NCBI GenBank assembly: GCA_018062345.1
Contig: JAGOSL010000001.1
Location: 170,493 to 234,492 of the forward strand
Length of the DNA: 64,000 bases
From: Pseudomonadota bacterium
GTDB lineage: Bacteria > Pseudomonadota > Alphaproteobacteria > Paracaedibacterales > CAITNM01
Direction of reading: 5' to 3'
In this document: positions 39,567 to 55,402 of the stretch, one piece after another
Position numbering within the stretch: position 1 is the first letter of the stretch
How the letters are laid out: the number at the start of each line of letters is the position of its first letter
The notes under the pieces: generated by a model
Database searches by the model: none
What the model was told of the DNA's origin: nothing
What the model saw: only the letters and a program-made list of their open reading frames with translations
Position numbers and translations under genes: made by a program

Positions 39567-40919
39567 TTATATTCCACGCATCATTGCGCCTAAACCTTGG
39601 CGCATGAAACCCTTTTTCCCTATCTTTCCCATTCGTTTGAACATTGTTTGCATTTGTTCAAACTGCTTGAGCAAGCGGTTAACTTCCATTACTTGCACCC
39701 CAGCACCTAATGCAATACGCTTGCGGCGTGATCCATTTAGGATATTGGGAGTTCGTCGCTCTTTTTTTGTCATTGATCTAATAACAGCAAGTTGACGGCG
39801 AACAAGGCTGTCATCAAGGCCAGCCCCTTCCAGTTTATCTTGTATTTTGCCAATTCCGGGCAAAAAACCAAGCATACTAGAAAGCCCGCCCATTTTTTGC
39901 ATGCCTTCTAATTGTTTGGCCATATCATTCAGATCAAAATGCCCTTTTTCTAATTTTTTTGCAAGCTTTTCTTGATCTTCACTTTCAGCAAGTGCAGAAG
40001 CTCTTTCTACTAAGGCAATAATATCGCCCATATCAAGGATACGGCTGGCAACGCGATGGGGGTCAAATATCTCTAATTGGTCAATACGCTCGCCCATTCC
40101 AAGAAATTTAATCGGGCATCCAGTTACGTGACGCATAGAAAGAGCGGCGCCCCCGCGGCCGTCACCATCTGCTCGTGTGAGGATAATTGATGTTAGGCCT
40201 ATAGCATCATGGAAGCTTTTTGCTATATTTACAGCATCTTGTCCAGTGAGACTGTCAGCTACTAAGAATGTTTCTATAGGCTTTGATAGAGATTTTATTT
40301 CTTTTAATTCTGCCATCAATTCATCGTCGATGTGTAAACGTCCGGCAGTATCTAAAATAATAACATCTGTATTTTGGGTTTTTGCTGCGGTCATTGCACG
40401 CTTTGTTATCGCAAGTGGCTTCTCGCTATCAACAATAGGCAAACTTGGAATGTTCATTTGCTTAGCCAGCGTTTCCAATTGTAATTGAGCGGCAGGGCGG
40501 TATACGTCTAATGAGGCTAATAAAACATTTTTTCCAAACTTAGTGGTAAGTAATTTTGCGAGTTTTGCTGAAGTGGTAGTTTTTCCTGATCCTTGCAAAC
40601 CAGTCATTAAAATGACCATAGGTGAAGGGGCAGCAAGATTGATGGGTTCAGGCTCACCACCTAAAGCATGAATCAATTGTTCATTTACAATTTTTACAAC
40701 CATTTGGGCAGGATTAATGCTTTTGACAAGCTCTTGCCCAATAGCCTTTTCTTTTGCTTGTTCGATAAATTCTTTGACAACGGGTAAGGCTACGTCTGCC
40801 TCAAGAAGGGCAATGCGAATTTCACGCATCGCTGTGTTGACGTCATCTTCTGAAAGGGCGCCACGACCTTTTAAGCGATCAAAGATTCCGGATAAGCGAT
40901 CAGATAGTGATTTGTACAT
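39567..40919 (-). CDS. ffh: signal recognition particle protein Ffh
   Basis: GLQGSGKTTT, DTAGRL, TRADGDGRGGAALS and a Met-rich M domain. Confidence 0.95.
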   Translation of the reverse strand: MYKSLSDRLSGIFDRLKGRGALSEDDVNTAMREIRIALLEADVALPVVKEFIEQAKEKAIGQELVKSINPAQMVVKIVNEQLIHALGGEPEPINLAAPSPMVILMTGLQGSGKTTTSAKLAKLLTTKFGKNVLLASLDVYRPAAQLQLETLAKQMNIPSLPIVDSEKPLAITKRAMTAAKTQNTDVIILDTAGRLHIDDELMAELKEIKSLSKPIETFLVADSLTGQDAVNIAKSFHDAIGLTSIILTRADGDGRGGAALSMRHVTGCPIKFLGMGERIDQLEIFDPHRVASRILDMGDIIALVERASALAESEDQEKLAKKLEKGHFDLNDMAKQLEGMQKMGGLSSMLGFLPGIGKIQDKLEGAGLDDSLVRRQLAVIRSMTKKERRTPNILNGSRRKRIALGAGVQVMEVNRLLKQFEQMQTMFKRMGKIGKKGFMRQGLGAMMRGI

Positions 40920-40998: not shown

Positions 40999-42192
40999 CT
41001 AATCGTATTCCGTATTTACTAAATTATCCCAGTCAGGAAAATCATCATTGAAATTATTCTTGGCAAGTTGTTCAGATGAAATAGATGCTAATGTCTGAGG
41101 AAGAAGAAATGGGAGATCATCAGCTGTTATTTCATCATCGCTATCTTCTTCGCTTGAGGTCCAAGATTTTTGCTTTGATCTTTTTAGCAGTGAACTTCTT
41201 TTAAGAGTATTTGGAGTAATCATCTTTCCATTGTCATCGAATTCTAAGCTATTTCTTCTGCCTCGAAAGCTTTTAAGTGTCTTATTTTTAAGCAACTCTA
41301 TTCTATCTGGAAATTGAACGCTGCGTGAGTTGGTTTTTAAAGCCTTTTCAGGCCCCAACCTGCAAGATGTTTCAATGCTGAGTTCTCCGCCGGCCCTAAT
41401 TCCATCATAGATTATTTGTGGTGCTATATATGCACGAAACTTAGCAGTAAGAGCAACCATAGATGAAAACATAAAAATAGTGTATTTGGGTTTTTTTGAT
41501 AGGTTTGGTATGTGTTGTGTGCAACCTTTTATCCAGATTGCTAAATTAGGGTAATGTGATTTGAATTCTTTTTTAAAATTTAGTAGTGGGTTTAAGTTAG
41601 CTGTATATCCAATAATATGGCGAAGAGCTAAGTTAAGCTCTACATCTTCATTTGTGCCATCTAGATCATCCCATATTTTTGAAAAGACTCGAGCGAAAGT
41701 TTCTAACTTCCATAAGTTTCCTGTATTTCTGCAAGGGTCTGGAGTGTTGATGATCTTTAAAAAAATGAATAATGTATTGCGTGTGATATCTTGTTCATAC
41801 AAGGGGTTGAAATATATTTGGGAAGTTACTTGCCGTTTCAAAGTGTATGCTTTAAGAATTTTCTCGGAAAGTATTTTTATTTCGTCAAGAACAGGTCTTT
41901 GAGAAAAAATCTCATTAATAATTTGACCAAAAAGAGGCGTTTGTTCAAAATTTATAGCTGGGACTCGAGGAGCATGACTAAGTAGGTGTTGAAAAATAGC
42001 TGGATTAATAGCTATTTTTTCAGTCCAAAAATTGGGAATAAAAGTGCTAGGAACTAAGTAAAGACCCGCAACAAAGGGCTGCATAGCATAATTTTGATCT
42101 TGCTCAAATTCTTTGTCATCTTTTGCTTCAGCACTGTATAATGCGAAAACTATTACGATAGCTAAAAAACTTAGAATAAAATGTCGAAACAT
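40999..42192 (-). CDS. secreted hypothetical protein, family A paralog 1 (397 aa)
   Basis: Signal peptide MFRHFILSFLAIVIVFALYSAEA. It aligns by eye to ORF 56617-57525 (for example FIFLKIINTPDP vs TSFLSIINTPSV, HYPNLAIW vs PYPDLAEW, and APQII vs ASQII). Confidence 0.6.
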   Translation of the reverse strand: MFRHFILSFLAIVIVFALYSAEAKDDKEFEQDQNYAMQPFVAGLYLVPSTFIPNFWTEKIAINPAIFQHLLSHAPRVPAINFEQTPLFGQIINEIFSQRPVLDEIKILSEKILKAYTLKRQVTSQIYFNPLYEQDITRNTLFIFLKIINTPDPCRNTGNLWKLETFARVFSKIWDDLDGTNEDVELNLALRHIIGYTANLNPLLNFKKEFKSHYPNLAIWIKGCTQHIPNLSKKPKYTIFMFSSMVALTAKFRAYIAPQIIYDGIRAGGELSIETSCRLGPEKALKTNSRSVQFPDRIELLKNKTLKSFRGRRNSLEFDDNGKMITPNTLKRSSLLKRSKQKSWTSSEEDSDDEITADDLPFLLPQTLASISSEQLAKNNFNDDFPDWDNLVNTEYD

Positions 42193-42341
42193 CTGCTGAG
42201 TGTGAATGCTTTTCTTATTAAAGTATAAAGTCCAAATTTTCAGATACTCAAGAAATATATTCTAGGTGGACGGTGCCACCTTGGCGTATTACCTGAAACA
42301 ATTTTTTTATTTCTAAGATTGCTGCTCAAAAATTCTGTTTG

Positions 42342-42356
42342 TGGCATGATTTTTGT
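42342..42356 (+). promoter_or_regulatory. possible sigma54 (-24/-12) promoter upstream of fliD
   Basis: TGGCAT-GATTT-TTGT against the consensus TGGCAC-N5-TTGC, about 40 nt upstream of the fliD ATG. There are two mismatches, so support is weak. Confidence 0.3.
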
Positions 42357-42395
42357 ATATAAGAACATACTATATAGTAAACAAAAGGTAGTTAC

Positions 42396-44243
42396 ATGCC
42401 TGGCGAAGTTAGCATGGGTAGAGCCATTGTGGATCCAAAAGGTCAAAAGCCTGTACGTGTTGGTATGAATCACGGTGGTCTTGATATGCAAGCAACCGGT
42501 AAAGAAATAAAAGAAGCTACTCTTGCCTCTACAAAAAAGCAAAGCGATGCTATTGAGAAAAATAAAACAGGGGTTCTTCCAGCTATCAGCGCTTTGCAAG
42601 AAAAAGTTAAATTATTACAAAGTGATGCTATTGCACTTAGTAACTACCTTGGAGATCGGCCTGGAATTGAAAGCAGTTTTAAAAGTCTTGTTCCTACAGT
42701 TTCTAAATCTGGAGAATTCTCAACAACTTCATTTGTGGACGTTACTCTAGATAGTGCCGTTGCTAAACCAACATCTGGATCAGTTTCCATGCGTGTTCTT
42801 CAGCTAGCAGTTGAGGACTCACGTATAACGGTAGATACAATCAAAGATTCAAGTAATAATCCCATTACATCAATTAACCAAGAGTTAGGCATATCAGGTA
42901 GTTTCACAATTAATGGTGGCGCCACAATTAATGTAAGAACAACTGATACATTGTACTCAATTGTTTCAGCAATTAACAATTCAAACTCAGGTGTGCAGGC
43001 AAATTTTTCCCAAAATGGTTTCGAACACTATTTAACATTAACAGGAACAAAACTTGCAAAGTCTCTCTTTTTTTCAGATAACGACGGCCTGCTGCAAACT
43101 CATTTTGGTATCGACACGGGGCCTACAGATATAGGAAACTTACAGGCAAAAATAGAATGTGATGTAACCGATGGCAAAAGAGGTGTCGTCACAAAAACCT
43201 ATGAATTTGACTCTAATATCGTTAAAGACCTAATTCCGGGTGCAACCCTAAAGCTTTTGAATACCACAAAAAATAGTGGTGGTGGTTATGACAACCTCAA
43301 TATTAATATTAGCAATAATAGCAAAGAAGCATGCGACAAAATTCTCGCATTCTACCAACACTATAATGAGATACGAGAAACTCTTAACAGAAATCTAATG
43401 ACAGATGACGATGGAAATCCCTTGGATCCAGAAGCTGTTATGGTAAGGTCGCCCTTGATTAAAAAACTTAATGAAGATTTGAGAGCGATTTCTCATTTTA
43501 CATTAGTAGGCTCGGAAAGAGATGATTTTGTAACAGTTAGAGATATAGGAATCGTGCGCGATGAAACAGCTACAGGGTTTCAAGCGGGTATATTTACAAT
43601 AGCTGATGCACAAAAACTTTTAGCAGCAATCCAAAATAATTTTGAGAAAGTCAAAAAGTTATTTGGAAATTACACTACAGTCTCAAATAGTAACTTTCGC
43701 GTAACGGATCTTGGTCCTTCTCTTGACCCTATGCTTGCGGGACGACCAATAACTGTTACGCTTAGCAATGTTGGCGGTAAATATTATTCCAGATTTTTAT
43801 GCGGCAATAACGATACAGGAAATGTAGAGCAAAAATCCTCATCCCGTCTGGTGGGAAAGGAAAATAGTGTTTTTGATAAAATTACGATCGACTATAAGGG
43901 GGCTCCTGTTCAAGATGGAGATAGTGTTACCTTTACTTTGACAGCAACCCAAGGGCTTGGCGTCTCAGTTAGCAATACACTAGGAAGCCTTTTAACAAAA
44001 GAAACTATTGATAAAAAAACCGGTAGAGTAGTAGAGGCAGATGGCGATTTTTCCATTGAGGTAAAACGCATACAACAAAAAAATGAAAAATTAGAAAAGC
44101 AAGTTAAAAGGATTGAAAAAAATGCTGAACGTGAAGAAAAAAGGTGGATAGCTCAGGCTGCACGCTATGATGCAATGAAAGCCAGCTATTCTAGCCTTTC
44201 AAAGCAACTAGAAAGTATGTCGATGGCTCACAGAAGAGATTAG
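42396..44243 (+). CDS. fliD: flagellar filament cap protein FliD (hook-associated protein 2)
   Basis: 615 aa. It has an N-terminal heptad region (ISALQEKVKLLQSDAIALSNYL) and a C-terminal coiled coil (RWIAQAARYDAMKASYSSLSKQLESM). It is followed by fliS. Confidence 0.7.
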   Translation: MPGEVSMGRAIVDPKGQKPVRVGMNHGGLDMQATGKEIKEATLASTKKQSDAIEKNKTGVLPAISALQEKVKLLQSDAIALSNYLGDRPGIESSFKSLVPTVSKSGEFSTTSFVDVTLDSAVAKPTSGSVSMRVLQLAVEDSRITVDTIKDSSNNPITSINQELGISGSFTINGGATINVRTTDTLYSIVSAINNSNSGVQANFSQNGFEHYLTLTGTKLAKSLFFSDNDGLLQTHFGIDTGPTDIGNLQAKIECDVTDGKRGVVTKTYEFDSNIVKDLIPGATLKLLNTTKNSGGGYDNLNINISNNSKEACDKILAFYQHYNEIRETLNRNLMTDDDGNPLDPEAVMVRSPLIKKLNEDLRAISHFTLVGSERDDFVTVRDIGIVRDETATGFQAGIFTIADAQKLLAAIQNNFEKVKKLFGNYTTVSNSNFRVTDLGPSLDPMLAGRPITVTLSNVGGKYYSRFLCGNNDTGNVEQKSSSRLVGKENSVFDKITIDYKGAPVQDGDSVTFTLTATQGLGVSVSNTLGSLLTKETIDKKTGRVVEADGDFSIEVKRIQQKNEKLEKQVKRIEKNAEREEKRWIAQAARYDAMKASYSSLSKQLESMSMAHRRD

Positions 44244-44252
44244 GACTTAATT

Positions 44253-44648
44253 ATGTATAATCGCTATAAACAAACATCCGTCCAAGGGTTAACAGTTAAT
44301 CGGCAGATTGCAACTGTCATAAAAGATATTCATATGAAGTTGCAAGAAAGCGAACGCTTATTTAGAAGTTATAAATTAGCTGCCAGTATAGAAAGCGGTG
44401 AAAAAGCTGTTTATAAATCAATTGCTCTTTCAAATATTATGGAAGGGTATATAGATCAAACGATAAAAAAGAATCAAGGAAATTCAGAAGTTTTAGAGGG
44501 TCTGAAAGAGCTGCAACTGCATTTTAATAGTTTGCATCACACGATTAACCAATATGTTATCAAGCGTAATAAAGAGTTATATGAAAAAATAATTCTTAAT
44601 TTAAAAGCAATGGAAAATTTTTGGAATGAATTGCCTGCTGTAGAATAG
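44253..44648 (+). CDS. fliS: flagellar export chaperone FliS
   Basis: 131-aa helical protein immediately downstream of fliD. YKQTSVQG start and a C-terminal ...MENFWNEL. Confidence 0.55.
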   Translation: MYNRYKQTSVQGLTVNRQIATVIKDIHMKLQESERLFRSYKLAASIESGEKAVYKSIALSNIMEGYIDQTIKKNQGNSEVLEGLKELQLHFNSLHHTINQYVIKRNKELYEKIILNLKAMENFWNELPAVE

Positions 44649-44655
44649 AAAGCTT

Positions 44656-46011
44656 TTACCTATCAATTCTTATTCCAAAAGCTTTTAATTCTTTAAGAAT
44701 TGTTTGTAAATCTTGTTCAGTATTGCCTTCTGCTCTTACGATTAATGCACTTTGGGTGTTAGATGCGCGTACTAACCACCAGCCGTAAGTATTCTCAACG
44801 CGAACACCATCAATTTCATTAAAGCTTTTCCCTGCATCAGTTAGTTTTTTCTTTAAATCATGAATGATTTGAAGTTTCTCTCTTTCATTACAGTTAAGGC
44901 GTATTTCAGGAGTGCTGTAAGCTTTTGGAAGCTGGGCTACTAAATCAGAGAAATTTACTTCAAGTTTTTGAATATAATTCAGCAGGAAAATCGCAGCATA
45001 CAATCCATCGTCAAAACCGTAATAATCATGTTTAAAAAACATGTGCCCGCTCATTTCACCAGCAAATATAGCATTATGTTGAATCATCGCCTGTTTTATC
45101 CAAGAATGTCCTGTCCGCTCCATCACTGGTTTTCCACCAGCCGCTGTAATAGCATTGAATGTATGATTGCTGCACTTGACATCGGCAATAATTGTACCGC
45201 CTTTCGCATCTTGCAAAATCGCATGGCTTATAATCGCGACTAGCTCATCACCCGCAATAATACGCCCCGTGGAGTCTACAATTCCCACGCGGTCTGCATC
45301 ACCATCAAAAGCAAAGCCAATATCGCAATTATTTTCTTTTACAGCTGCAATAAGGTGACTTAAATTTTCAGGTACACTTGGGTCGGGGTGGTGATTGGGG
45401 AAATTGCAATCAATATTCGTAAATAATGGCACATGACTATGTTTAGAAAGGTCTTTGCAAAATGCTTCTATAACGGGTCCCGCAGCGCCATTTCCGGCAT
45501 CCCAGGCAATTCTTAGCGGCTTTTTAAAAGTGTGCCCTAACAACACTCGTTTAACGTATTTATCAAAAACATCTTTGTGTTCTGTATAATTTCCACCAGG
45601 TTTTTTTGTCACCTCTTGCAGAAGTAGATTTTGAATTTGTGTTCCAAAAAATGGTTTGTTCCTTAAGGTGATTTTAATGCCGTTATCATCCTTGGGATTA
45701 TGTGATCCTGTAATCATTAACGTTGCATCGGCATTCAGCTCAAAACCAGCGAAATAGCTCATAGGGGTTGGGCCCACGCCAATATCTAGTACCTCAAGGC
45801 CACAATCTATTAAAGCGTTACATAAAACTGCATGAAGTGCTGGCGAACTACTGCGCCCATCGCGGCAAACTACAACTGTTTTTCCACCATTGTCGCGCAA
45901 TAAGCTACCGAAGTGTTCACCTAACCACGTGGCATCAGCCTCAAAAAGGTTCTTGCCATAGGTGCCGCGTATATCATATTCACGCAAAATAATGGGGTTA
46001 GGCTGATACAT
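44656..46011 (-). CDS. phosphomannomutase/phosphoglucomutase
   Basis: Phosphoserine loop ITGSHNPKDDNG, metal loop FDGDADR and GEMSGH. Length is 451 aa. Confidence 0.9.
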   Translation of the reverse strand: MYQPNPIILREYDIRGTYGKNLFEADATWLGEHFGSLLRDNGGKTVVVCRDGRSSSPALHAVLCNALIDCGLEVLDIGVGPTPMSYFAGFELNADATLMITGSHNPKDDNGIKITLRNKPFFGTQIQNLLLQEVTKKPGGNYTEHKDVFDKYVKRVLLGHTFKKPLRIAWDAGNGAAGPVIEAFCKDLSKHSHVPLFTNIDCNFPNHHPDPSVPENLSHLIAAVKENNCDIGFAFDGDADRVGIVDSTGRIIAGDELVAIISHAILQDAKGGTIIADVKCSNHTFNAITAAGGKPVMERTGHSWIKQAMIQHNAIFAGEMSGHMFFKHDYYGFDDGLYAAIFLLNYIQKLEVNFSDLVAQLPKAYSTPEIRLNCNEREKLQIIHDLKKKLTDAGKSFNEIDGVRVENTYGWWLVRASNTQSALIVRAEGNTEQDLQTILKELKAFGIRIDR

Positions 46012-46225
46012 GCTCTATCGTTGTTAAAAATATGGGATATTCTAAATCATTCACAAAAAAAATAGCAATAATTTATCCTGCTCAAAATTTTACAAAGAAA
46101 TATGTATTGCAAAAAATTACAGCTATCACTAAATAATAAATGAAAGAAATCAGGCATTACAACAATATCAGCAACTGATGCAACAAATGGCTGCTCTACC
46201 ACGAGCGTGTGATGTAGAAAATAAT

Positions 46226-47104
46226 TTAAGCTGATAGAGGTATTTTAAGGTTTGTAAACACAGATTTCAAATAGGGACGAAGTTCAGGGTCACTTGCTGC
46301 CAGGGCAAGATTTGCCTGTAACCAGCCTACTTTTGTGCCGCAGTCATAGCGCTCACCAGAAAAACGAAACCCCGTTAAAGGAACATTAGCTCCAAGCATC
46401 GATTGTAACCCGTCTGTTAGCTGAATTTCCCCTCCAGTACCAGCTTTTTTTAAGCCCAACGGCTCAAAGATTGAAGTGCTTAAAATATAGCGGCCAATAA
46501 TCGCGGTTGAAGAAGGGGCTGCAGATATATCCGGTTTTTCAATAACGGCTTTTGCATTTACCTTTGCGCCTGACTGCGACCCAATATCAAGAACGCCATA
46601 ACGATTAACTTCATTTTTTGGCACATCAATTACAGCCACCATGTTGCCATCGTCTTTAGTGTAAGAATCAACCATTTGTTTTAGGCAAGGAACTTTTGAT
46701 TGAATTAAATCATCAGCAAGTAAAAGTGCAAATGCATCTTCTTGGATAAAATGGCGTGCACACCAAACTGCATGTCCTAACCCTAATGGTTCATGCTGAC
46801 GAACGAATAATGCTTGCCCTTCTGGAATGCGAATTGAGCGAATTTTTTCAAGGTCTTCTATTTTTCCGCGAGCTTGCAAAGTCGATTCAAGCCCGCTATG
46901 GCTATCAAAATGATTCTCGATTGCTTCTTTACCTTGAGAAGTTATAAAAATAAATTTTTCAATTCCTGCTGCTTTTGCTTCTTCAACTGCATATTGAATA
47001 AGTGGCTTGTCAACAACTACTAGCATTTCCTTTGGGATAGCTTTTGTAGCTGGCAAAAAACGGCTTCCAAGTCCAGCTACTGGGAAAACAGCAGTTTTAA
47101 TCAT
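46226..47104 (-). CDS. galU: UTP--glucose-1-phosphate uridylyltransferase
   Basis: AVFPVAGLGSRFLPATKAIPKEML and VEKP. TGATG overlap with mipZ. Confidence 0.92.
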   Translation of the reverse strand: MIKTAVFPVAGLGSRFLPATKAIPKEMLVVVDKPLIQYAVEEAKAAGIEKFIFITSQGKEAIENHFDSHSGLESTLQARGKIEDLEKIRSIRIPEGQALFVRQHEPLGLGHAVWCARHFIQEDAFALLLADDLIQSKVPCLKQMVDSYTKDDGNMVAVIDVPKNEVNRYGVLDIGSQSGAKVNAKAVIEKPDISAAPSSTAIIGRYILSTSIFEPLGLKKAGTGGEIQLTDGLQSMLGANVPLTGFRFSGERYDCGTKVGWLQANLALAASDPELRPYLKSVFTNLKIPLSA

Positions 47105-47931
47105 CAGGCAACTTTCCTGCTTTGTTTCGGAATTTGAATCATTTCTAGCAGCTGGTTTAGTTCTTGGCGAGCAGCAACATGAGAAATATTCATCGCAACT
47201 CTTGCTTCGCGTAAATCAAGTAACGTAATTCCATTTAAAAATAACTCACGGAAAATTACACGCTCACCAAAACCTGCAACCAGGCGAAAACCTATTCGCT
47301 TTGAAAGATTCTCCAAAGCTTTGCGCATTTCTTCCTTATTACGTGAATTTACAGAAGTTAAACGGTTGCGCAGCACAATCCAATCGATAGCTCTGCGATC
47401 ACCGCGTATTGCGCGTTGTTTTTTTTGCTCCCATACCATTTCTGAATAGGTGCTAGGACGAACAACTTCTAAAGTTTCGGGGTTTAATCGCGCCAACATA
47501 TCAAGATCGATAAAACTGTCATTTAACGGAGTAATCAACGTGTTCGCAAAGCTATGTGCTAAGCGTGATAAATACATATCACTACCAGGTGTATCAACTA
47601 CTATATAGTCACAGGCTGCCAGTTTTTCCATGGCTTCTTTAAAATTTTTTTCATCTTCTGCTTGAGCTTCCTCAACTATAGATTTTTCTGAACGAAAAAC
47701 TGGATAATGCTCAGGTAAAGGTAAGTGTTCATCAGGTTTAGCTTCACTTCGCAGGCGGCGATTCTCAACATAGCGAGACAACGTTCCCTGACGCGCGTCC
47801 ACATCAATACTACCCACCTTGTATCCTTGGCGTAAAAGGGACGTGATAATATGCATTGCTGCAGTTGATTTACCCGTCCCGCCTTTTTCGTTGCCCAATA
47901 CAACAACATAAGGATTATGATTTTCAGACAC
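47104..47931 (-). CDS. mipZ: ParA-like division-plane positioning ATPase MipZ
   Basis: VVVLGNEKGGTGKSTAAMHIITSLL...GSIDVDARQGTLSRYVENRR closely follows the Caulobacter MipZ N-terminus as recalled. Length is 275 aa. Confidence 0.8.
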   Translation of the reverse strand: MSENHNPYVVVLGNEKGGTGKSTAAMHIITSLLRQGYKVGSIDVDARQGTLSRYVENRRLRSEAKPDEHLPLPEHYPVFRSEKSIVEEAQAEDEKNFKEAMEKLAACDYIVVDTPGSDMYLSRLAHSFANTLITPLNDSFIDLDMLARLNPETLEVVRPSTYSEMVWEQKKQRAIRGDRRAIDWIVLRNRLTSVNSRNKEEMRKALENLSKRIGFRLVAGFGERVIFRELFLNGITLLDLREARVAMNISHVAARQELNQLLEMIQIPKQSRKVA

Positions 47932-48082
47932 TTGATATTCCTTTGCTTAAATTCTGATTTCATAATAGAAAGAAATAAGGAATAAATTCAAGATTTTATT
48001 ATCAGAGATTAAATATTACTAAATTTAATTGATTATTAATTTAAAATTTTAACAGTGCATTGGTAATTTAAGGTCTATGCTT

Positions 48083-48112
48083 AAAAAACAGGCCCTCACT
48101 GGTTAATGAGGG
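48083..48112 (-). terminator. rho-independent terminator for ORF 48131-49549
   Basis: Minus strand reads CCCTCA-TTAACCAG-TGAGGG followed by CCTGTTTTTT. Confidence 0.7.
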
Positions 48113-48130
48113 TCTATTTAAATAAACTAA

Positions 48131-49549
48131 TTAGACTTCTTCATTAGCAACATTGTTAGCACCTGAAGTTGTTAAAAGAGCTGCTTCGTTTAATTCTTCT
48201 TCAGAAGATGTTTGGGGCAACTCCTTCTCGATAATTTTATGTTCAGAATCATCATCAATAACATCCAAATCTAGACGTATTCCAGGTAATTCAGAAACCT
48301 CTGCCAACGTACTAGTTTTAAGCAATGCCTGAGCTCCTAACATTTTTGCTAAAAAGTTAGTTGTTGCTGTTCTCAGGTTAATCATAAATTCTGAATTTAG
48401 GTCTATTCCAGTTAGGAAAACAGCATCATCAATCATGGAAATTGAGCCATCACTCTTTACAACTAATTTTTGCGAAGCAGAAGTTGATGGTAGAGTTCCG
48501 TGTAATGTATAAATTTTACTAGCTAGAATATTGGTGGGACTTTGATCTGTCACAAACGAAGTTGCTGCAGGAACAGTTGAGGGCTTTATCATAACCCCAA
48601 AAAGCGCATCAAAAGCTGCGTAAGCCAAAGTTTTTCTAACATCAAGCTCTCTAATTTGTAATACTTGTAAAGCATCTGGTTGTATTGAAGTGCTTAATCC
48701 TCCCCATGCAGATTTCGTAGCTGCCTTATTAACCTCTTGAATCTGCCCTAGAATTGATTGCAAATATTCACCAATTATCGGAACAATTCCGCGCATCTGC
48801 GGGATGATATTTACCAAAAAACTTGCTCGTGTAAGATTGTCAGCTGTATTAGTATCACAAGCAATATTACGTACGCACTTTAAAAGTGAGTCTAGTTGCT
48901 GATTCAGTGATACCGCAAGATCCACAGGAGAAGTTAGGTACCGGCGAATATTCAAAAAATAAACTTGTTCAGCAATAGGTAGAGAAGAAGTTTTTTGTTC
49001 TATCGCAAGATATAATGAACACAGCTGTCCTGGCACAACCTCGCTTTGTTCTGAAAGTACCGAAAATGCATGCACACCAGGGCTTTGAAGTTGTTGATGG
49101 GCTTCGTACACATCATCTTGTAACAACTCAATTTCATCGCTTAACTTATTTATTTCAGTCTGCAATGAAATAATAATATCTTGATTTTTTTTATTGGTGC
49201 TAAGAATGCCTGCTTTTGCCCCAACGCAATATGATAAGCAGCCCTTAACTTTTGGTTTATTAGTTACAGATGCTTGAGCATCTTCAAAAAATCTTATAGG
49301 TAAAGAAGAACTCGAAATTTGTTTGATTAATTCTTGTTTAAGAACATCTTTATCTATCGTATCTATTAATTTTTCTACATAAGCAGCAAATATTTTTGGT
49401 CCTTGCTCTCCTGAAAAGCGTCCCGTTTCTTGACTTAGCTCTGAAAGAGTATCTAAAGAATATTCTGTGCTTGCAGCATCTAAGCTTTGAATGTGTAAAA
49501 CACCACCCAGTAGCAGAGCAATTGCCGTAAATTTTAGGGATGACTTCAT
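48131..49549 (-). CDS. secreted hypothetical protein (472 aa)
   Basis: Signal peptide MKSSLKFTAIALLLGGVLHIQSLDAA, a helical body and an acidic C-terminus. No family recognised. Confidence 0.55.
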   Translation of the reverse strand: MKSSLKFTAIALLLGGVLHIQSLDAASTEYSLDTLSELSQETGRFSGEQGPKIFAAYVEKLIDTIDKDVLKQELIKQISSSSLPIRFFEDAQASVTNKPKVKGCLSYCVGAKAGILSTNKKNQDIIISLQTEINKLSDEIELLQDDVYEAHQQLQSPGVHAFSVLSEQSEVVPGQLCSLYLAIEQKTSSLPIAEQVYFLNIRRYLTSPVDLAVSLNQQLDSLLKCVRNIACDTNTADNLTRASFLVNIIPQMRGIVPIIGEYLQSILGQIQEVNKAATKSAWGGLSTSIQPDALQVLQIRELDVRKTLAYAAFDALFGVMIKPSTVPAATSFVTDQSPTNILASKIYTLHGTLPSTSASQKLVVKSDGSISMIDDAVFLTGIDLNSEFMINLRTATTNFLAKMLGAQALLKTSTLAEVSELPGIRLDLDVIDDDSEHKIIEKELPQTSSEEELNEAALLTTSGANNVANEEV

Positions 49550-49622
49550 ATAGTAACTCCTGAAAAAATGATACTTACCTAATTAGTGTAGGCCTCAAGA
49601 TGAAAAAATAAAGCACTTTTTC

Positions 49623-50528
49623 TTACTGTTTTTTATCTTTTTCAAAAAGAACTTTTATTTTACTGCTAAGTAATAATGCCACATCTAGTGAATGGAATTT
49701 AAGCGGTAATACTTGCTGCTCAATTGTCTGAGTGATCGATACTTGTTTTATTACTGATTTTTCAACACGCATAGCCGCTTTTGCAGATAACACTGCATGT
49801 GTTACAACTGCCTCAACAGATAAGGCTCCTTGCTTTACAAGAAATTCTGCAGCACAACACAAAGTACTTCCGGTATCAATAATATCATCCACCAAAATGC
49901 AATCATAACCGGCTACATTCGTATTAAGCCCACTCATCTGGCATGTAGTGTCTGCCTTTCTAATTTTATTCATGACTGCAAAATTACATCCAAGTGCTTG
50001 GCTTAGCTTTTGTGCACGTATCCTACTTCCCGCATCGGGAGAAACAATCATTAAATTTTTGCGATTCCTTAAAAAATCAGCAAATAATGGTGTTGTTTCG
50101 ACATTTTGTACGGGAATGGAAAAAAAATCAGTAATATTTTGAGCGTGTAAATCAACCGTGATCAAATGATCAACTCCAACTACTTCAAAAAGTGTTGATA
50201 CCACTTGCGCAGATATTGGCCCGTTCAAGCTTGTAACTTTGTTTTGGCGGGCATATCCAAAATAGGGCAGTACTGCAATCACCCGGCTGGCCCCTGAATA
50301 CTTTACAGCATTAACCAGTAGTAATAGTTCCATTAAATGATCATTCACTGGATTTGAGGTTGATTGCACAATAACCACATCTTTTCCACGTAGGTCATTT
50401 GCTACTTCAACTCGAAGCTCTCTATCTTCGAAGTAAGCAGTTTGTGCATCCACAAAATCTATGCCAAGCATGTTACTAAGTTTTTTTGCTAACTTTAGGC
50501 TACTGCTGCCGGCAATAAGTTTGGTCAT
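49623..50528 (-). CDS. prs: ribose-phosphate pyrophosphokinase
   Basis: VLPYFGYARQ, the PRPP loop ILVDDIIDTGSTL, and DLHA. Confidence 0.92.
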   Translation of the reverse strand: MTKLIAGSSSLKLAKKLSNMLGIDFVDAQTAYFEDRELRVEVANDLRGKDVVIVQSTSNPVNDHLMELLLLVNAVKYSGASRVIAVLPYFGYARQNKVTSLNGPISAQVVSTLFEVVGVDHLITVDLHAQNITDFFSIPVQNVETTPLFADFLRNRKNLMIVSPDAGSRIRAQKLSQALGCNFAVMNKIRKADTTCQMSGLNTNVAGYDCILVDDIIDTGSTLCCAAEFLVKQGALSVEAVVTHAVLSAKAAMRVEKSVIKQVSITQTIEQQVLPLKFHSLDVALLLSSKIKVLFEKDKKQ

Positions 50529-50603
50529 AGAAAAAATGTTCTGAATTTTTAATAAGAGTAGAATATAAGCGACAGAAAATCTTCATTAAAAGTGGTTTTA
50601 AAA

Positions 50604-51485
50604 TTAATAAAAAAAATCAGGATTCTCAGTGGATTTTCTCCTTTTCTTTCTTTGCTCTTGTTCTTGAGCAGAAGCGTAAATACAAGAAAACCTGTCTTCA
50701 CTTGTTGTTGCTTCATCCTCTAAAGAGTTAAAGTAACTTGCTGCGATTTTACGAGCATTTTTTAATTTTTTAGATCTAGTTTTTCTTATTATTTTTGACA
50801 ATCTTGCCTTTGTATACCAAGGAACAATTTCATCTTCTGAGGAGAAAAATTCTTCAAGAGAATTTTCTGCATATCTATGATGACCCAACAAAGAATCATT
50901 CTGCAAAATATCGCAAGCCGTGAACGCTTTTGCTGAAATTTCAAGATTCTTCCAAACTGAAATCGCGTGCTTATGATGCGCCTTGAACTCAGGATTATTT
51001 AAAATCTTGCAAGCAATAACTTCTTTCGCTAAAGAAACTGACGAATGAGTGCTTTTATCAGAACTGAAGTCTTTCCATGCTCTTATTGCTGCTTCATGCT
51101 CGTAATATTCTCCTAAGGACGTATTTGTGAACAGCTGCAAAGCAATGAATGCTTTTGCTTTAATAGGAAAATCTCTTTCAGTAATCAGAACAGCTGCAGT
51201 AGCCGCTACTTGTATGTGCAATTCTTCTAACTCTCTTTTAAGCAAAATGGTATTTATAAGGTTTGCTTTGATGCTAGAAGAAACTTTTGAGTTTTCAAGG
51301 TAGGGCAATGCTTCTTCTGCTCTTGCTTGATGATATTGACTCAAATCTTTATTTGCCAAAACATGACTAATAATTTCTGCATAATAATCAGGGTGATGAA
51401 TCGGCCCTTCCATTGCATGGAAAGAACTTATGAATTGCGTCATTGAAAAACATAGGCCACTGATTTTAAAAACAATTTTTAGCAA
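50604..51485 (-). CDS. hypothetical helical-repeat protein with a basic C-terminal tail
   Basis: Three to four tandem units of about 45 aa (PIKAKAFIALQLFTN, VSLAKEVIACKILNN, ISAKAFTACDILQND), each preceded by an aromatic/His-x2-A-x3-W/L segment. The tail is EQEQRKKRRKSTE. Confidence 0.5.
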   Translation of the reverse strand: MLKIVFKISGLCFSMTQFISSFHAMEGPIHHPDYYAEIISHVLANKDLSQYHQARAEEALPYLENSKVSSSIKANLINTILLKRELEELHIQVAATAAVLITERDFPIKAKAFIALQLFTNTSLGEYYEHEAAIRAWKDFSSDKSTHSSVSLAKEVIACKILNNPEFKAHHKHAISVWKNLEISAKAFTACDILQNDSLLGHHRYAENSLEEFFSSEDEIVPWYTKARLSKIIRKTRSKKLKNARKIAASYFNSLEDEATTSEDRFSCIYASAQEQEQRKKRRKSTENPDFFY

Positions 51486-51552
51486 TACATTGATCTTTTC
51501 ATTAATTTAAACCAGAAATATATAGTATTATATTTCTAATTTCAACAGATCA

Positions 51553-52647
51553 TCAAGTTTTAGTTGCCGTGATCATCCATGAATTACGCCTTCCGTTGAA
51601 AGAATTTATCGGAACTCGTTCGTGCTGAATATTTAAAAATCCTTGTTTTTGCAAGAATTTGTTAATAGAAGAATCTGGTTGTGATTGTTCGAGTCTTTCT
51701 AATTCAAGTGCCACAACTGCGCTAAGAGATAACTGAAAGTGTTCTGCCTTGGTTAAGAAATCTTCAGCAAAAATACCTATTTCTGTATTTAGCAGCGCGA
51801 AATACTCAGTTTCATCAAGACGAATTAATCCAGTAGCAGTAGTCATTGCTTCCTGCACTGACCTTATAGCTTGCTCGCAAAGCGCCACTTTTTCTTTGCC
51901 CCTAGAAATTAATTCTTCTATTTTTTCGGGTAAAGCGCCTTGAGAAGATAATCGCTCTGTTGTTTCACTCCATACTTGCTCAGTCTCAGAAGACATTGCT
52001 GCCTTTAATAAATCTGGAAATAAAGGGTATGCATAAAAACTAAATGGATTTTTAATTATTGCTTCTTGGTTTTTAGAAATTAAAGGAAGGTGTTCTATGA
52101 AAAGATTAGCTCCTGACCGCATATTATTTGCTAAATTTTTAATAGCTCTTGGCATAAGAAAAAAATCTATAGTTGGTGGAGTGTCCATATCCTCAAGCAT
52201 TTTAGCTATTAGCTTTTTGCGTATTTTTGCTGGATAATTTGCTAATTTCTCAGAAACCTTTGCTACTATAGATTTTTTTATTTCTGGATCATTAGCTGCA
52301 GCTATCCTTTCTAAATCAAGAGCTGTTCGTACTCCTTCGCTAGGAAAAAGTTCCATGAATACAGCAGCAATAGGTTTTTTAAAACCAAATATGCAAACAT
52401 CTGTTCCAGAAATATGATTTGCTATTCCAGTATCAGGGCGCAAATCTAAAGTTGTGGCTCTACCACCAAATGTAAGGGTATGTGTAAAATCAGTTTCAGA
52501 ATTATGATAATAAGATTCAAGATACGGGTTGTTAATCTGACCAACAGTCCTATTGCTACCAACTACTAGATATAACTCTTCAGCACCATAAATAACTGAA
52601 AAAATTATCAAAATAAAAAATAAGCCAACTCTATTGATTTTTCTCAT
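51553..52647 (-). CDS. secreted hypothetical protein (364 aa)
   Basis: Signal peptide MRKINRVGLFFILIIFSVIYGA. No family recognised. Confidence 0.55.
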   Translation of the reverse strand: MRKINRVGLFFILIIFSVIYGAEELYLVVGSNRTVGQINNPYLESYYHNSETDFTHTLTFGGRATTLDLRPDTGIANHISGTDVCIFGFKKPIAAVFMELFPSEGVRTALDLERIAAANDPEIKKSIVAKVSEKLANYPAKIRKKLIAKMLEDMDTPPTIDFFLMPRAIKNLANNMRSGANLFIEHLPLISKNQEAIIKNPFSFYAYPLFPDLLKAAMSSETEQVWSETTERLSSQGALPEKIEELISRGKEKVALCEQAIRSVQEAMTTATGLIRLDETEYFALLNTEIGIFAEDFLTKAEHFQLSLSAVVALELERLEQSQPDSSINKFLQKQGFLNIQHERVPINSFNGRRNSWMITATKT

Positions 52648-52732
52648 ATTGCATTTCTTAAAACTAATGAATTGTAAAAATAATATAATATAAGAAGCTT
52701 TTTAGAAACTTTTATTTTCAAAATTTTTATTT

Positions 52733-53482
52733 CTACAACAAGCCAATCGTTGAAAGTTGATTGCCATAGAAAGATTCCCCACGATGGGCAGAGCGCCTGC
52801 AGCTGAAATATTCATCCTCCAGCGCATAAGTATCTAAACTCAGTACCTCAGTATTTTTAATGCCCTGTGTTTCAAGTTCATGTAATACATATCCAGCTAA
52901 ATCAAAAAGATAATAACTTAAACGTACTGACGAAATAAAAAATTTTTCCTGCTTTGCAGCAGCAAAAACTTCTTGGCCCACTTCGTAACTTTTTTGATGA
53001 ATACATGGGCCAATAGCTGCTGTAATATTTTCCTTTTTAGCACCCAGCGACTGCATAGCATCAATGGTTTTTTCAACAATACCAGCAACTGCACTGCGCC
53101 AACCAGCGTGAATGGCGCCTATAATTCCTTCAAAAGGATCTGTTAGCAAGATTGGTGCGCAATCCGCCGTTTGAATAGCGAGTAATCGACCAGGCATTTT
53201 ACTAACCATCGCGTCGCTTTGATGCCCATTTATTGTGTTTTTATCGACAATTAATACATCACTTTTGTGCACTTGGCGCAGCGTCACCATATGAGAAATT
53301 CCCATCACGCTACATATACGCTGGCGATTTTCAATAATATTAGCATCGTCATCATCTTTGTGAAACCCGGTATTAAGGCTTGTATAAATTCCTTGGCTCA
53401 CGCCTCCCTGACGACCAAAAAAGCCATGCACAATATTTTTGTGATCAAGTTTTTTAGCTTTTTGAAATGGAGGCGTTACCAT
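52733..53482 (-). CDS. pgeF: peptidoglycan editing factor PgeF / YfiH (laccase-domain protein)
   Basis: HGFFGRQGGVS, LRQVHKSDV, TADCAPIL and AIHAGWR. Confidence 0.88.
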   Translation of the reverse strand: MVTPPFQKAKKLDHKNIVHGFFGRQGGVSQGIYTSLNTGFHKDDDDANIIENRQRICSVMGISHMVTLRQVHKSDVLIVDKNTINGHQSDAMVSKMPGRLLAIQTADCAPILLTDPFEGIIGAIHAGWRSAVAGIVEKTIDAMQSLGAKKENITAAIGPCIHQKSYEVGQEVFAAAKQEKFFISSVRLSYYLFDLAGYVLHELETQGIKNTEVLSLDTYALEDEYFSCRRSAHRGESFYGNQLSTIGLL

Positions 53483-54501
53483 TGAAAAACCTCAAGTACT
53501 TTAAAGCGTTGCCCCATTTCACTCGGTGCTACCAAACGGGTCGCTCCTGTTGTTAAGCTAAATCGTTGCTCAGGTGAAGCAATGCCAATTAGCTTTTCAA
53601 GGCGTTGTTCAATACCTAAACGCAACAAGAAATTTCCTTGTGGTTGAAACCTGAAATTTATAGCAATGCTGCACAATTTATGAAAATCAACCTGATGTGA
53701 TAAATCAGCAAAACTTAAACTCTGCAGCACATTAACTGGTTTATGCTGAAACAATGCTTGCAGCGTATCACCAAAGCGTGCTTCAGATGGGGTGTCATCA
53801 CCGTAGTCAATAATTAATGCCACCCCAGGACTAAGATAATTCATAATTTCATGCATCACTGCCTCTGCAGCAGGGCATGATTCTTTAATAGTTTTTGGAT
53901 TTCCAGGCGGAGAAAAAATCAGTGTATTTTCTTGTTCGCTATAACGCACCTTTCGTTCTTCGTGTCCAATGAACTGACGAATAGGCAATGTATCAAAAAA
54001 TTCATTAGCAACAATTATTGTAAAATCTGCACCTTTTGGTACTTCTGAAAGACTTGTGTGCCAGAAAATCGAAGGAAAATCACCTAATGCTTCACGCTGT
54101 TGCTCGCGAAGCGGCGCACAAATTTCGATACAACTAACTGTTAAACTTTCCAAAAAACCTTCCTGACGAGCCCCGATACGTAAAATATCTTGCATTAATG
54201 TTCCTCTGCCAGGCCCTAATTCAATTAGATGTAACGACGCGGGCATTCCTGCTTCTTGCCATTGAGCAATACACCAAAAAGCAAGCATTTCACCAAATAG
54301 CTGAGAAATTTCAGGTGCTGTTATAAAATCACCCTGAGAACCAATAACACTGTTGTGCACATAGTACCCAAACTCTGGATGGTAAAGACCAAGTTTTTGA
54401 GCTTCTTCTACTGTGACAGGACCGTTTTTTCGGATGTAGTCTTGAATACACGAAGGCGCACCATCATCAATATGATGCTTAGCAAAAGCATGAGCGTACA
54501 T
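53476..54501 (-). CDS. class I SAM-dependent methyltransferase, MidA/NDUFAF7 (DUF185) family
   Basis: GLYHPEFGYY, GDFITAPEISQLFGEMLA and LIELGPGRGTLMQDIL. Confidence 0.85.
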   Translation of the reverse strand: MYAHAFAKHHIDDGAPSCIQDYIRKNGPVTVEEAQKLGLYHPEFGYYVHNSVIGSQGDFITAPEISQLFGEMLAFWCIAQWQEAGMPASLHLIELGPGRGTLMQDILRIGARQEGFLESLTVSCIEICAPLREQQREALGDFPSIFWHTSLSEVPKGADFTIIVANEFFDTLPIRQFIGHEERKVRYSEQENTLIFSPPGNPKTIKESCPAAEAVMHEIMNYLSPGVALIIDYGDDTPSEARFGDTLQALFQHKPVNVLQSLSFADLSHQVDFHKLCSIAINFRFQPQGNFLLRLGIEQRLEKLIGIASPEQRFSLTTGATRLVAPSEMGQRFKVLEVFQW

Positions 54502-55238: not shown

Positions 55239-55402
55239 CTTTGGAAACTAATTTCACAACTTTATCATATAATACCAAACGCGAAAAGACGATGCTTGTG
55301 CGCCTATTGAAGGGGTAAATAAAAACTATTTTTTGAAAGAGTTTTAACTTTCTAATTTATATGGTGGATAACACACTAAAAGTGCCTAGGATTATAAAAA
55401 TT

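What the first reader, a model, noticed from the sequence alone, without database searches (positions are those of the whole stretch)
40999..42395. Paralogous secreted-protein family placed head-to-head with two separate flagellar operons
Seen in sequence:
- ORF 40999-42192 (minus strand, 397 aa) and ORF 56617-57525 (plus strand, 302 aa) both have Sec-type signal peptides.
- They align by eye over about 200 aa: LDEIKILSEKILKAY / KDEITKFANDTLSIY, YFNPLYEQDITRNTLFIFLKIINTP / KFNLIYEYDLGVLRMALTSFLSIINTP, HYPNLAIWIKG / PYPDLAEWARS, and FRAYIAPQII / VKAPFASQII.
- Both end in basic tails.
- The first is divergent from fliD-fliS, sharing a 203-bp promoter region that contains a weak sigma54-like TGGCAT-N5-TTGT.
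- The second is divergent from fliO-fliP, sharing a 148-bp region.
- I recognise no known domain.

Inference: two independent divergent pairings with flagellar genes suggest co-regulation with the flagellar or type III export system. These could be a novel accessory component, a periplasmic assembly factor or a secreted cargo.
Basis: partly seen in the sequence, partly recalled or inferred. Interest (0 to 1): 0.65.

Follow-up and report, generated by a model that had tools for sequence, protein, structure and literature searches.

The report
Fast-evolving secreted paralogue pair near fliOP
Two related signal-peptide proteins belong to a tiny, very fast-evolving orphan family found only in Finniella-like endosymbionts of protists, and their position beside two flagellar gene pairs comes from inherited gene order plus one local inversion, not from two independent associations.

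Summary
ORF A (40999-42192, minus) and ORF B (56617-57525, plus) are true paralogues (BLASTP E 3e-16; subfamily profiles E 4e-52). Both have cleavable Sec-type signal peptides and no known domain. One detail is wrong: A's tail is acidic, not basic.

The inference of two independent flagellar pairings fails.
- An exhaustive HMMER search of 1.84 billion proteins found only 21 members, all from Finniella-like (Paracaedibacteraceae) genomes.
- In seven other lineages the two subfamilies (T1, like A; T2, like B) sit in tandem between fliP-fliO and ffh-rpsP-rimM.
- The window's species differs by one ~15.5-kb inversion (42193-57748), supported by reversed third-position GC skew. That inversion placed A next to fliD.
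- Only the fliO adjacency is ancestral. In one lineage a 1.75-kb gene is inserted between fliO and the family gene, so the promoter halves are separable.

The neighbours are 75-97% identical between lineages, while the family is 26-58% identical (dN 15-30 times that of FliP/FliO). A Sec signal peptide excludes flagellar type III cargo.

Best reading: a lineage-specific, rapidly diversifying exported protein pair with a new all-alpha core and disordered, oppositely charged tails, probably acting at the host or envelope interface. Function is untested. Interest is modest.

The parts
40999..42192 (-). Paralogue A, subfamily T1, 397 aa. Signal peptide residues 1-23, all-alpha core about residues 52-260, disordered acidic tail residues 261-397.
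   Evidence: ORF. Homology. AF2 core pLDDT 77-97 and tail below 50. Intact in four near-identical strains, dN/dS 0.36.
42124..42192 (-). Signal peptide of A (MFRHFILSFLAIVIVFALYSAEA)
   Evidence: Only KD19 hydropathy peak in the protein. A-E-A site read from the sequence. Coordinates.
41413..42039 (-). Conserved all-alpha core domain of A. Motifs: LSxKIL..Y, FLxIINTPDP, W(K/R)xxTFxRxF, YPxLxxW, NxSxKPxxxxFxxSxMxALTxK.
   Evidence: Alignment A2. AF2 model. No PDB fold match, best Foldseek E 0.22 and TM below 0.2.
41236..41265 (-). T1 tail motif RGRRNSLEFD (R-R-x-S-hydrophobic-acidic), conserved in T1 tails that are otherwise unalignable
   Evidence: Alignments. Local pLDDT rise to 57-64. Coordinates.
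42193..42395 (.). A-fliD spacer, one junction of the inversion. Contains a sigma70-like site for A (42251-42222, minus strand) and a sigma54-like site for fliD (42342-42356, plus strand).
42396..44648 (+). fliD (42396-44243) and a 131-aa ORF in the fliS position (44253-44648)
   Evidence: FliD_C and Flagellin_IN Pfam hits. No family hit for the 131-aa ORF.
42193..57748 (.). About 15.5-kb segment inverted in this species relative to relatives (fliD, fliS, pgm ... lgt, fliP, fliO, B)
   Evidence: Colinearity with L012-L015 once the segment is flipped. Third-position GC skew is -0.12 for its 12 minus-strand genes, against +0.22 for minus-strand genes of the left flank. The same arrangement appears in more than 6 independent assemblies of the species.
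55403..56468 (-). fliO-like gene (56169-56468, 99 aa) overlapping fliP (55403-56176) by 8 nt
   Evidence: FliP Pfam E 3e-80. FliO TIGR03500 E 0.004, below cutoff. Gene calls in relatives.
56493..56525 (.). 33-bp element TTAATGCTAGCTCACATTTTTTTTAAAAAGCAA, near-invariant in six lineages, 25 nt upstream of the fliO ATG. On the fliO strand it reads TTGCTT-N18-TAGCAT, a likely fliO promoter.
   Evidence: Alignment. Unique in the window. Remains with fliO when a gene is inserted in L025. The promoter reading is inference.
56617..57525 (+). Paralogue B, subfamily T2, 302 aa. Signal peptide residues 1-19, core about residues 43-244, basic tail with APTPKKKGK.
39567..40919 (-). ffh, the conserved downstream neighbour of the T1 gene (79-nt gap), followed by rpsP and rimM
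57749..59233 (+). Peptidase_S9-like secreted protein at the other inversion junction. Its 5' end forms a weak inverted repeat with the 5' end of A.
   Evidence: Pfam hit. Inverted repeat I5, 42165-42195 against 57746-57776, 71% complementary. Shared N-terminal motif.

Best explanation
A and B are the two members (T1 and T2) of an old tandem gene pair. They encode a lineage-specific, rapidly diversifying family of Sec-exported proteins. The family is restricted to Finniella-like Paracaedibacteraceae, which are obligate endosymbionts of protists.

Each protein has a cleavable signal peptide, a ~200-aa all-alpha core with no detectable relative, and a disordered tail. The tail is acidic in T1, with a conserved R-R-x-S-hydrophobic-acidic motif. 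It is basic in T2, with a P-x-P-K/R-K/R motif and often FG(P/S)YF.

Shown:
- The pair's ancestral place is between fliP-fliO and ffh-rpsP-rimM.
- In the window's species one ~15.5-kb inversion, with a breakpoint between the two genes, carried B with fliO and left A beside fliD.
- The double flagellar neighbourhood is therefore one inherited adjacency plus a rearrangement.

Inferred:
- The proteins are exported by Sec and act at the envelope or host interface, as candidate host-interaction proteins, possibly as a T1/T2 complex through their oppositely charged tails.
- They are not parts or cargo of the flagellum.
- They are transcribed from their own promoter, separable from that of fliO.
For: Paralogy.

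Distribution: 21 proteins in 1.84 billion representatives. The one named genome is a Ca. Finniella inopinata MAG.

Gene order:
- Tandem pair between fliO and ffh in L009, L010, L011 (fliO side not on the contig), L012-15, L018 (ffh side not on the contig), L022 and L024.
- L012-15 is colinear with both window neighbourhoods.
- Reversed GC3 skew of the inverted segment.

Two old clades: NJ tree, bootstrap 51-84%.

Rate contrast:
- Window against relatives: Ffh 89-94%, FliP 85-91%, FliO 75-86%, T1/T2 26-43%.
- L018 against L009: FliP 97% (omega 0.03), FliO 96% (omega 0.05), T1-like 38% (dN 0.60, omega 0.44), T2 58% (dN 0.29, omega 0.40).
- Within species, A has the highest dN of 30 genes.

Separable promoters: the conserved element lies only on the fliO side, and a 1.75-kb gene is inserted between the halves in L025.

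Structure: confident all-alpha core and disordered tail, with no PDB, Pfam or NCBIfam relative.

Precedent: in the related Ca. Bodocaedibacter, 158 proteins carry signal peptides, 105 of them uncharacterised and mostly lineage-restricted (PMC8163844).
Against: - No direct evidence of export beyond the inner membrane, of host contact, or of expression.
- The fliO adjacency is kept in 7 of the 8 lineages where it can be seen, although both flanking junctions (lgt-fliP and pair-ffh) took up insertions. This could reflect a regulatory constraint.
- Average omega is 0.4-0.5, not above 1, so relaxed constraint is as compatible as diversifying selection.
- The eukaryote-like reading of the tail motifs rests on recalled consensus patterns, not on a test.
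- A secretion route across the outer membrane was not identified, because only 64 kb of the genome was seen.
Confidence: 0.6

Rival explanations
1. A clade-specific periplasmic accessory pair of the flagellum, for example an assembly factor or scaffold near the export gate or basal body, transcribed divergently from and co-regulated with fliO-fliP.
For: - Divergent adjacency to fliO with a 140-185-bp spacer in seven lineages, kept even by the inversion in the window species.
- The signal peptide fits a periplasmic location.
- Flagellar genes in this genome are scattered in ones and twos, so small units are normal here.
Against: - It evolves 15-30 times faster at non-synonymous sites than FliO/FliP, and much faster than the FliJ-like protein, which is 60% identical.
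- It is absent from all other flagellated bacteria.
- Long disordered Ser/Asp/Glu-rich tails are unusual for periplasmic machine parts.
- No sequence or fold similarity to any known flagellar protein.
- A gene is inserted between fliO and the family gene in L025, and T2 is lost there.
- The conserved intergenic element belongs to the fliO half only.
Confidence: 0.17
2. Exported envelope or periplasmic proteins with a housekeeping or structural role unrelated to both the host and the flagellum, drifting fast under the relaxed selection typical of small endosymbiont populations.
For: - Omega is 0.36-0.48, not above 1.
- Other orphan genes nearby (h472, h364) show similar omega of 0.42-0.48.
- No secretion system was seen in the window.
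Against: - The core fold and the short tail motifs are kept across about 30% identity, and both paralogues are retained in at least 7 lineages. This argues for function under selection.
- The locus repeatedly gains other secreted orphan genes.
- The T1-like gene differs far more than its flanks between close relatives, 55% against 96-99%.
Confidence: 0.18
3. Secreted cargo of the flagellar type III export apparatus.
For: Proximity to fliO-fliP and fliD. A review notes that flagella of Holosporineae might also serve as a secretion system (PMC11909080).
Against: All full-length members start with a classical cleavable Sec-type signal peptide and have no other hydrophobic segment. By established knowledge, flagellar type III substrates carry uncleaved, non-hydrophobic N-terminal signals. 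The fliD adjacency is a by-product of an inversion.
Confidence: 0.03

Closest known systems
Lineage-restricted signal-peptide orphan proteins of Paracaedibacteraceae endosymbionts (e.g. Ca. Bodocaedibacter vickermanii secretome, PMC8163844)
   Same: Same bacterial family and the same lifestyle. Sec signal peptide, no known domain, homologues only in the closest relatives.
   Different: No sequence relation was tested or shown to those proteins. Here the family is a conserved two-gene tandem with a defined all-alpha core, charged tails and a fixed chromosomal place beside fliO.
Periplasmic flagellar accessory proteins (FlgA, FlgT/FlgP, MotC, PflA/PflB, FliL)
   Same: Signal peptide or membrane anchor, encoded next to flagellar genes, some restricted to particular clades.
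   Different: No sequence or fold match. The family evolves far faster than the flagellar genes beside it. It has long disordered tails and is limited to one small clade.
Non-flagellar proteins exported through the flagellar type III apparatus (e.g. Campylobacter Cia/FlaC, Yersinia YplA; from my own knowledge)
   Same: The idea of cargo encoded near or co-regulated with flagellar genes.
   Different: Those substrates lack Sec signal peptides. This family has them.
Periplasmic proteins of infectious-form Holospora that are released into the host (89-kDa and 63-kDa proteins; from my own knowledge, not checked here)
   Same: Holosporales, Sec-exported, reach the host without a dedicated injection signal. 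This gives a precedent for the route proposed.
   Different: No homology was tested. Finniella-like bacteria are not known to have such a specialised infectious form.

Membership tests
Flagellar type III export substrates | Uncleaved, non-hydrophobic N-terminal export signal and no Sec signal peptide | tested here: not met
   Every full-length member has a positively charged n-region, a hydrophobic h-region and a small-x-small site, followed by an acidic stretch.
Known flagellar protein families (Pfam/NCBIfam Flg, Fli, Mot, Pfl models) | Significant profile match | tested here: not met
   No family at E up to 0.1-1 for A, B or any of the 21 members.
Known flagellar protein families | Fold similarity to a solved flagellar component | tested here: not met
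Flagellar regulon member (co-regulated with fliOP or fliD) | Shared or flagellar-type promoter serving the gene | tested here: inconclusive
   The sigma54-like site points to fliD, not to A. The conserved element is fliO-proximal and separable from the family gene's upstream half. There are no expression data.
Flagellar regulon member | Conserved linkage to flagellar genes across relatives beyond general synteny | tested here: inconclusive
   Next to fliO in 7 lineages and interrupted in 1 (L025). All lineages are close relatives with the whole region syntenic.
Sec-dependent exported proteins | N-terminal signal peptide with n-, h- and c-regions, and no further transmembrane segment | tested here: met
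   Single KD19 hydropathy peak at the N-terminus. AEA|K and AGA|T sites (and the sequence). No dedicated predictor was available.
Host-directed effectors of intracellular bacteria | Lineage restriction and accelerated evolution relative to housekeeping neighbours | tested here: met
   21 members in 1.84 billion proteins. dN is 15-30 times that of FliP/FliO. 26-43% identity against 75-94% for neighbours.
Host-directed effectors of intracellular bacteria | Delivery into the host, or a demonstrated eukaryote-like functional motif | not testable with these tools
   The conserved R-R-x-S-hydrophobic-acidic motif (T1), the P-x-P-K/R-K/R motif (T2) and the acidic Ser/Asp runs are suggestive only. No secretion system was seen in the 64-kb window.

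The most novel reading that the evidence does not exclude
T1 and T2 form a heterodimeric exported effector pair of Finniella-like endosymbionts that reaches the protist cytoplasm. The conserved R-R-x-S-hydrophobic-acidic motif and acidic-aromatic C-terminus of T1, and the basic P-x-P-K-R tail of T2, would be host-recognised short linear motifs (kinase or protease site, targeting signal). The persistent placement next to fliO-fliP would reflect expression timed with the flagellar, transmission-stage programme. This would be a new effector fold and a first handle on how Paracaedibacteraceae manipulate their hosts.
Probability: 0.12. Interest if true: 0.65.

Novelty: new member of a known kind. 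Interest (0 to 1): 0.3.

Why it matters
Holosporales and Paracaedibacteraceae are widespread protist endosymbionts for which almost no host-interaction proteins are known. A conserved, fast-diversifying, Sec-exported gene pair with an unmatched fold and conserved tail motifs is a reasonable candidate for such work.

As a genome-scan lesson, it shows that two separate adjacencies to the same functional class can be a single ancestral adjacency split by an inversion. As it stands, this is an uncharacterised orphan family of a common sort in endosymbiont genomes, with no demonstrated link to the flagellum.

Tried and rejected
- Word-indexed protein searches with A, B and the family alignment returned only same-species copies plus one relative. 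The exhaustive profile search was needed.
- The first AF2 run on a 6-sequence alignment failed, pLDDT 30. The 21-sequence alignment gave a usable core.
A hand-made degenerate pattern found 3 genome loci.
- The metagenome scan with FliD returned only the window's own species. The ancestral fliD neighbourhood, predicted to be fliD divergent from the Peptidase_S9 gene, could not be seen directly.
- Local alignment of the two junction spacers to the T2-T1 spacers of relatives gave nothing consistent. One of 12 comparisons, the B-pepS9 spacer against L018, passed the 95th percentile of shuffles but not their maximum. The breakpoints are therefore placed only to within the spacers.
- The sigma54-like site was considered as a promoter for A and rejected because of its orientation.
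- Further copies in the window were looked for. None exist.
- The L022 346-aa gene was tested as a third paralogue. It is not a member.
- L025 first looked like a family member without flagellar linkage. DNA comparison showed it is the same locus with an insertion.
- L012 and L014 turned out to be one species, more than 99% identical, and are counted once.
Full report
**1. What is in the window.**
ORF A (40999-42192, minus strand, 397 aa) and ORF B (56617-57525, plus strand, 302 aa) are present as described.
- A lies between ffh-rpsP-rimM (downstream, same strand) and a divergent fliD. FliD has Pfam FliD_C at E 9.5e-15 plus Flagellin_IN. It is followed by a 131-aa ORF in the fliS position that matches no family.
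- B is divergent from a 99-aa gene that overlaps fliP by 8 nt. FliP scores Pfam E 3e-80. The 99-aa gene gives only a sub-threshold FliO hit, E 0.004.
- The spacers are 203 and 148 bp.
- The window has 37.6% G+C.
- Its flagellar genes are scattered singly or in pairs among housekeeping genes: a FliJ-like gene at 36422-36856, fliD and fliS?, fliO and fliP, and a MotB/OmpA-like peptidoglycan-binding gene at 61345-62319. None lie in the first 36 kb.

**2. The paralogy is real.**
- BLASTP gives 30% identity over 202 aa, E 3e-16.
- In a six-frame search of the window each protein finds only the other.
- Profiles of the two subfamilies align with hhalign at probability 100%, E 3.8e-52, over the signal peptide and core. 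The tails do not align.
- Both proteins have one N-terminal hydrophobic segment with an A-x-A type site and no other hydrophobic segment.
A's tail is acidic (pI 5.1) and B's is basic (pI 10.6).

**3. The family.**
- Word-indexed searches found only copies that are at least 96% identical.
- An exhaustive HMMER profile search of 1.84 billion representative proteins found 21 members and nothing else.
- Members are 300-400 aa. Each has a signal peptide followed by an acidic stretch, a ~200-aa core with conserved motifs (LSN.IL..Y, SFL.II.TPDP, EWK.QTF.R.F, YP.L..W, N.S.KP....F.LSLM.ALT.K) and a variable tail.
- A neighbour-joining tree of the core separates two old clades.
  - T1 contains A. Its tails are acidic, with FPNRLEEAKRK, then (N)RGRRNSLEFDANGK, then a Ser/Asp/Glu run followed by aromatic residues.
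  - T2 contains B. Its tails are basic, with (A/C)P.P(K/R)(K/R) and often FG(P/S)YF.
- No Pfam, NCBIfam or PDB sequence match exists for any member.
- With the 21-sequence alignment, AlphaFold2 gives a confident all-alpha core (residues 52-260, pLDDT 77-97) and a disordered tail.

**4. Who carries it.**
One of the genome contigs with the family is labelled Candidatus Finniella inopinata. The others are unnamed Alphaproteobacteria MAGs. Finniella belongs to the Paracaedibacteraceae (Holosporales/Holosporineae), cytoplasmic endosymbionts of cercozoans and ciliates with relatives in freshwater metagenomes (PMC11909080). The window's neighbours are very similar to those of the relatives: Ffh 89-94%, FliP 85-91%, MipZ 93%. 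The window therefore comes from the same shallow clade.

**5. Genomic context in relatives.**
The tandem pair sits between fliO and ffh in seven lineages.

| Lineage | Arrangement |
|---|---|
| L009 | fliP<-fliO<- \| T1-like -> T2 -> \| <-327 aa \| ffh -> |
| L010/L016 | Same, with a His_Phos_1 gene before ffh |
| L018 (Ca. Finniella inopinata MAG) | fliP<-fliO<- \| T1-like -> T2; contig ends before the ffh side |
| L012-L015 (one species) | fliP<-fliO<- \| T2 -> T1 -> ffh -> rpsP -> rimM |
| L022/L023 | As L012-L015, with one extra secreted orphan gene before ffh |
| L024 | As L012-L015 |
| L011 | T2 -> T1 -> NUDIX -> ffh; upstream side not on the contig |

- No relative shows a family member next to fliD.
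- L012-L015 is colinear with both window neighbourhoods at once: NTP-transferase, mipZ ... Cu-oxidase_4, Methyltransf_28, lgt ... fliP, fliO | T2, T1, ffh, rpsP, rimM ... MIP, fliJ-like, DAGK ... Cob_adeno_trans.
- Flipping window 42193-57748 reproduces that order exactly.

**6. The inversion.**
- The same derived arrangement is seen in many independent assemblies of the window's species, so it is not a misassembly.
- Third-position GC skew, referred to the plus strand, is +0.32 for plus-strand genes and +0.22 for minus-strand genes in the left flank. It is -0.12 for the twelve minus-strand genes of 44.6-56.5 kb, and positive or near zero again on the right, +0.18 and +0.02 (window profiles). 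A replication-linked skew that is reversed only in this segment is what a fairly recent inversion predicts. Single short genes (B, the fliS-position ORF, pgm) deviate, within noise.
- The 5' ends of A and of the Peptidase_S9 gene encode similar signal peptides (MFRHFILSFL and MIKKFILTFW). They form a weak 31-nt inverted repeat (71%) that brackets the segment exactly. This suggests recombination between these repeats as the mechanism, but repeats of that quality are common, so it is not proof.
- Spacer comparisons could not refine the breakpoints.
- Consequence: the A-fliD pairing is a by-product of the inversion. Only the fliO adjacency is ancestral.

**7. Is the fliO adjacency functional?**
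- Across six lineages the fliO-family spacer keeps one near-invariant 33-bp element (window 56493-56525). It lies 25 nt upstream of the fliO start and is unique in the window. On the fliO strand it reads TTGCTT-N18-TAGCAT.
- The half of the spacer nearer the family gene is poorly conserved between subclades.
- In L025, a close relative of L009 (flanks 94-96% identical in DNA), a 582-aa secreted orphan gene is inserted between the two halves. The conserved element stays with fliO. About 95 nt of upstream sequence stays with the T1-like gene, and T2 is missing. The two genes therefore have separable control regions, and the junction is not inviolable.
- Co-regulation cannot be excluded without expression data, but nothing in the sequence calls for it. 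In a clade this shallow, conserved adjacency is the default.

**8. Evolutionary rate.**

| Comparison | Gene | aa identity | dN | omega |
|---|---|---|---|---|
| L018 vs L009 | FliP | 97% | 0.020 | 0.03 |
| L018 vs L009 | FliO | 96% | 0.025 | 0.05 |
| L018 vs L009 | T1-like | 38% | 0.60 | 0.44 |
| L018 vs L009 | T2 | 58% | 0.29 | 0.40 |
| L025 vs L009 | Flanking genes | 96-99% | | |
| L025 vs L009 | T1-like | 55% | | |

- Window against relatives: family 26-43% identical, neighbours 60-94%.
- Within the window's species, A has the highest dN of 30 genes compared (0.018, omega 0.36). ffh has omega 0.03, fliD 0.05 and fliP 0.
- The genes are intact in all strains, and omega is below 1, so they are functional. 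They are under far weaker or more diversifying selection than any flagellar gene beside them.

**9. Interpretation.**
- A cleavable Sec signal peptide excludes export through the flagellar type III gate (established knowledge of that pathway).
- Four things argue against a structural or assembly role in the flagellum: extreme divergence next to highly conserved FliO/FliP, restriction to one small clade, long disordered charged tails, and no similarity to any flagellar protein.
- The same features are typical of lineage-specific exported proteins of obligate intracellular bacteria. In the related Ca. Bodocaedibacter, 158 proteins carry signal peptides, and 105 of them are uncharacterised and mostly lineage-restricted (PMC8163844).
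- The fliO-ffh interval also repeatedly acquires other secreted orphan genes.
- I therefore favour an exported T1/T2 pair acting at the envelope or host interface, confidence about 0.6 overall. The evolutionary account is much firmer than the functional one.
- Two further ideas are inference only. One is that the opposite charges of the T1 and T2 tails indicate a complex. The other is that the conserved R-R-x-S-hydrophobic-acidic and P-x-P-K/R-K/R motifs are host-recognised linear motifs; this rests on recalled consensus patterns.
- Rivals: a clade-specific periplasmic flagellar accessory (0.17), an envelope protein drifting under relaxed constraint (0.18), and flagellar cargo (0.03).

**10. 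Novelty and score.**
The family is undescribed and has no detectable relative in sequence or, as far as could be tested, in fold. As a kind of thing it is common: a lineage-restricted, signal-peptide-bearing orphan of an endosymbiont. The feature that made it look special, two independent flagellar pairings, is explained away. Interest 0.3. The most novel reading not excluded, a host-delivered effector pair expressed with the flagellar or transmission programme, has probability about 0.12.

Noticed in passing
window 27707-27721 (+), upstream of 27746-28492: TGGCACGACTTTTGC is a perfect sigma54 -24/-12 consensus, 25 nt upstream of an SLT-domain lytic transglycosylase gene. This may be a flagellar rod-insertion transglycosylase (SltF/PleA-like) under sigma54 control. 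The weaker TGGCAT-N5-TTGT sits at a comparable distance upstream of fliD.
   Followed up: partly
window 56493-56525; also L009, L010, L012, L014, L018, L025: A 33-bp element, TTAATGCTAGCTCACATTTTTTTTAAAAAGCAA, is near-invariant upstream of fliO in every lineage while the rest of the spacer has diverged. It is conserved well beyond the two promoter-like hexamers, so it may also bind a regulator.
   Followed up: partly
window 42165-42195 and 57746-57776; 56617, 57749, 59301: Four exported proteins share an N-terminal motif M-[IF]-[KR]-x-F-I-[LF]-x-F: A, B, the Peptidase_S9-like protein and the orphan at 59301-59780. The 5' ends of A and the peptidase gene form a weak inverted repeat exactly at the two inversion junctions.
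   Followed up: partly
L022 8320-9360; L025 307-2055 and 4492-5067; L009 4588-5571: The interval between fliO and ffh is a hotspot for lineage-specific secreted orphan genes. Examples are a 346-aa protein, a 582-aa protein with a GPGSSGA serine-protease-like motif, and a signal-peptide protein with acidic EEDFDFD/SDSEEDF runs resembling T1 tails.
   Followed up: partly
L009, L010, L018 versus window, L011, L012-15, L022, L024: The order of the two subfamilies is swapped between two subclades. The T1-like gene is next to fliO in one, and T2 is next to fliO in the other. This is unexplained; a small rearrangement or duplication followed by loss could account for it.
   Followed up: no
window 48131-49549, 51553-52647, 50604-51485, 11998-13191, 4816-5988: Several further orphan ORFs have no Pfam or NCBIfam match. 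The 472-aa and 364-aa ones have within-species dN/dS of 0.42-0.48, as high as A.
   Followed up: partly
window 36422-36856 (+): An isolated 144-aa coiled-coil gene between DAGK and an MIP channel gene is a weak FliJ match (TIGR02473, E 7e-5). It is conserved at the same place in relatives, about 60% identical. This is another sign that flagellar genes are dispersed singly in this genome.
   Followed up: partly
window 905-1336 (+): An IS200-like Y1 transposase (Pfam E 4e-44) lies directly upstream of a cytochrome oxidase subunit III gene.
   Followed up: no
window 23850-25703 (+): A 617-aa protein combines a cyclic-nucleotide-binding domain with a CitMHS-type transporter domain.
   Followed up: no
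window 61345-62319 (-): A 324-aa OmpA/MotB-like peptidoglycan-binding protein best matches NF006543 (PRK09039), with weaker MotB/MotD matches. Whether it is a stator component was not resolved.
   Followed up: no
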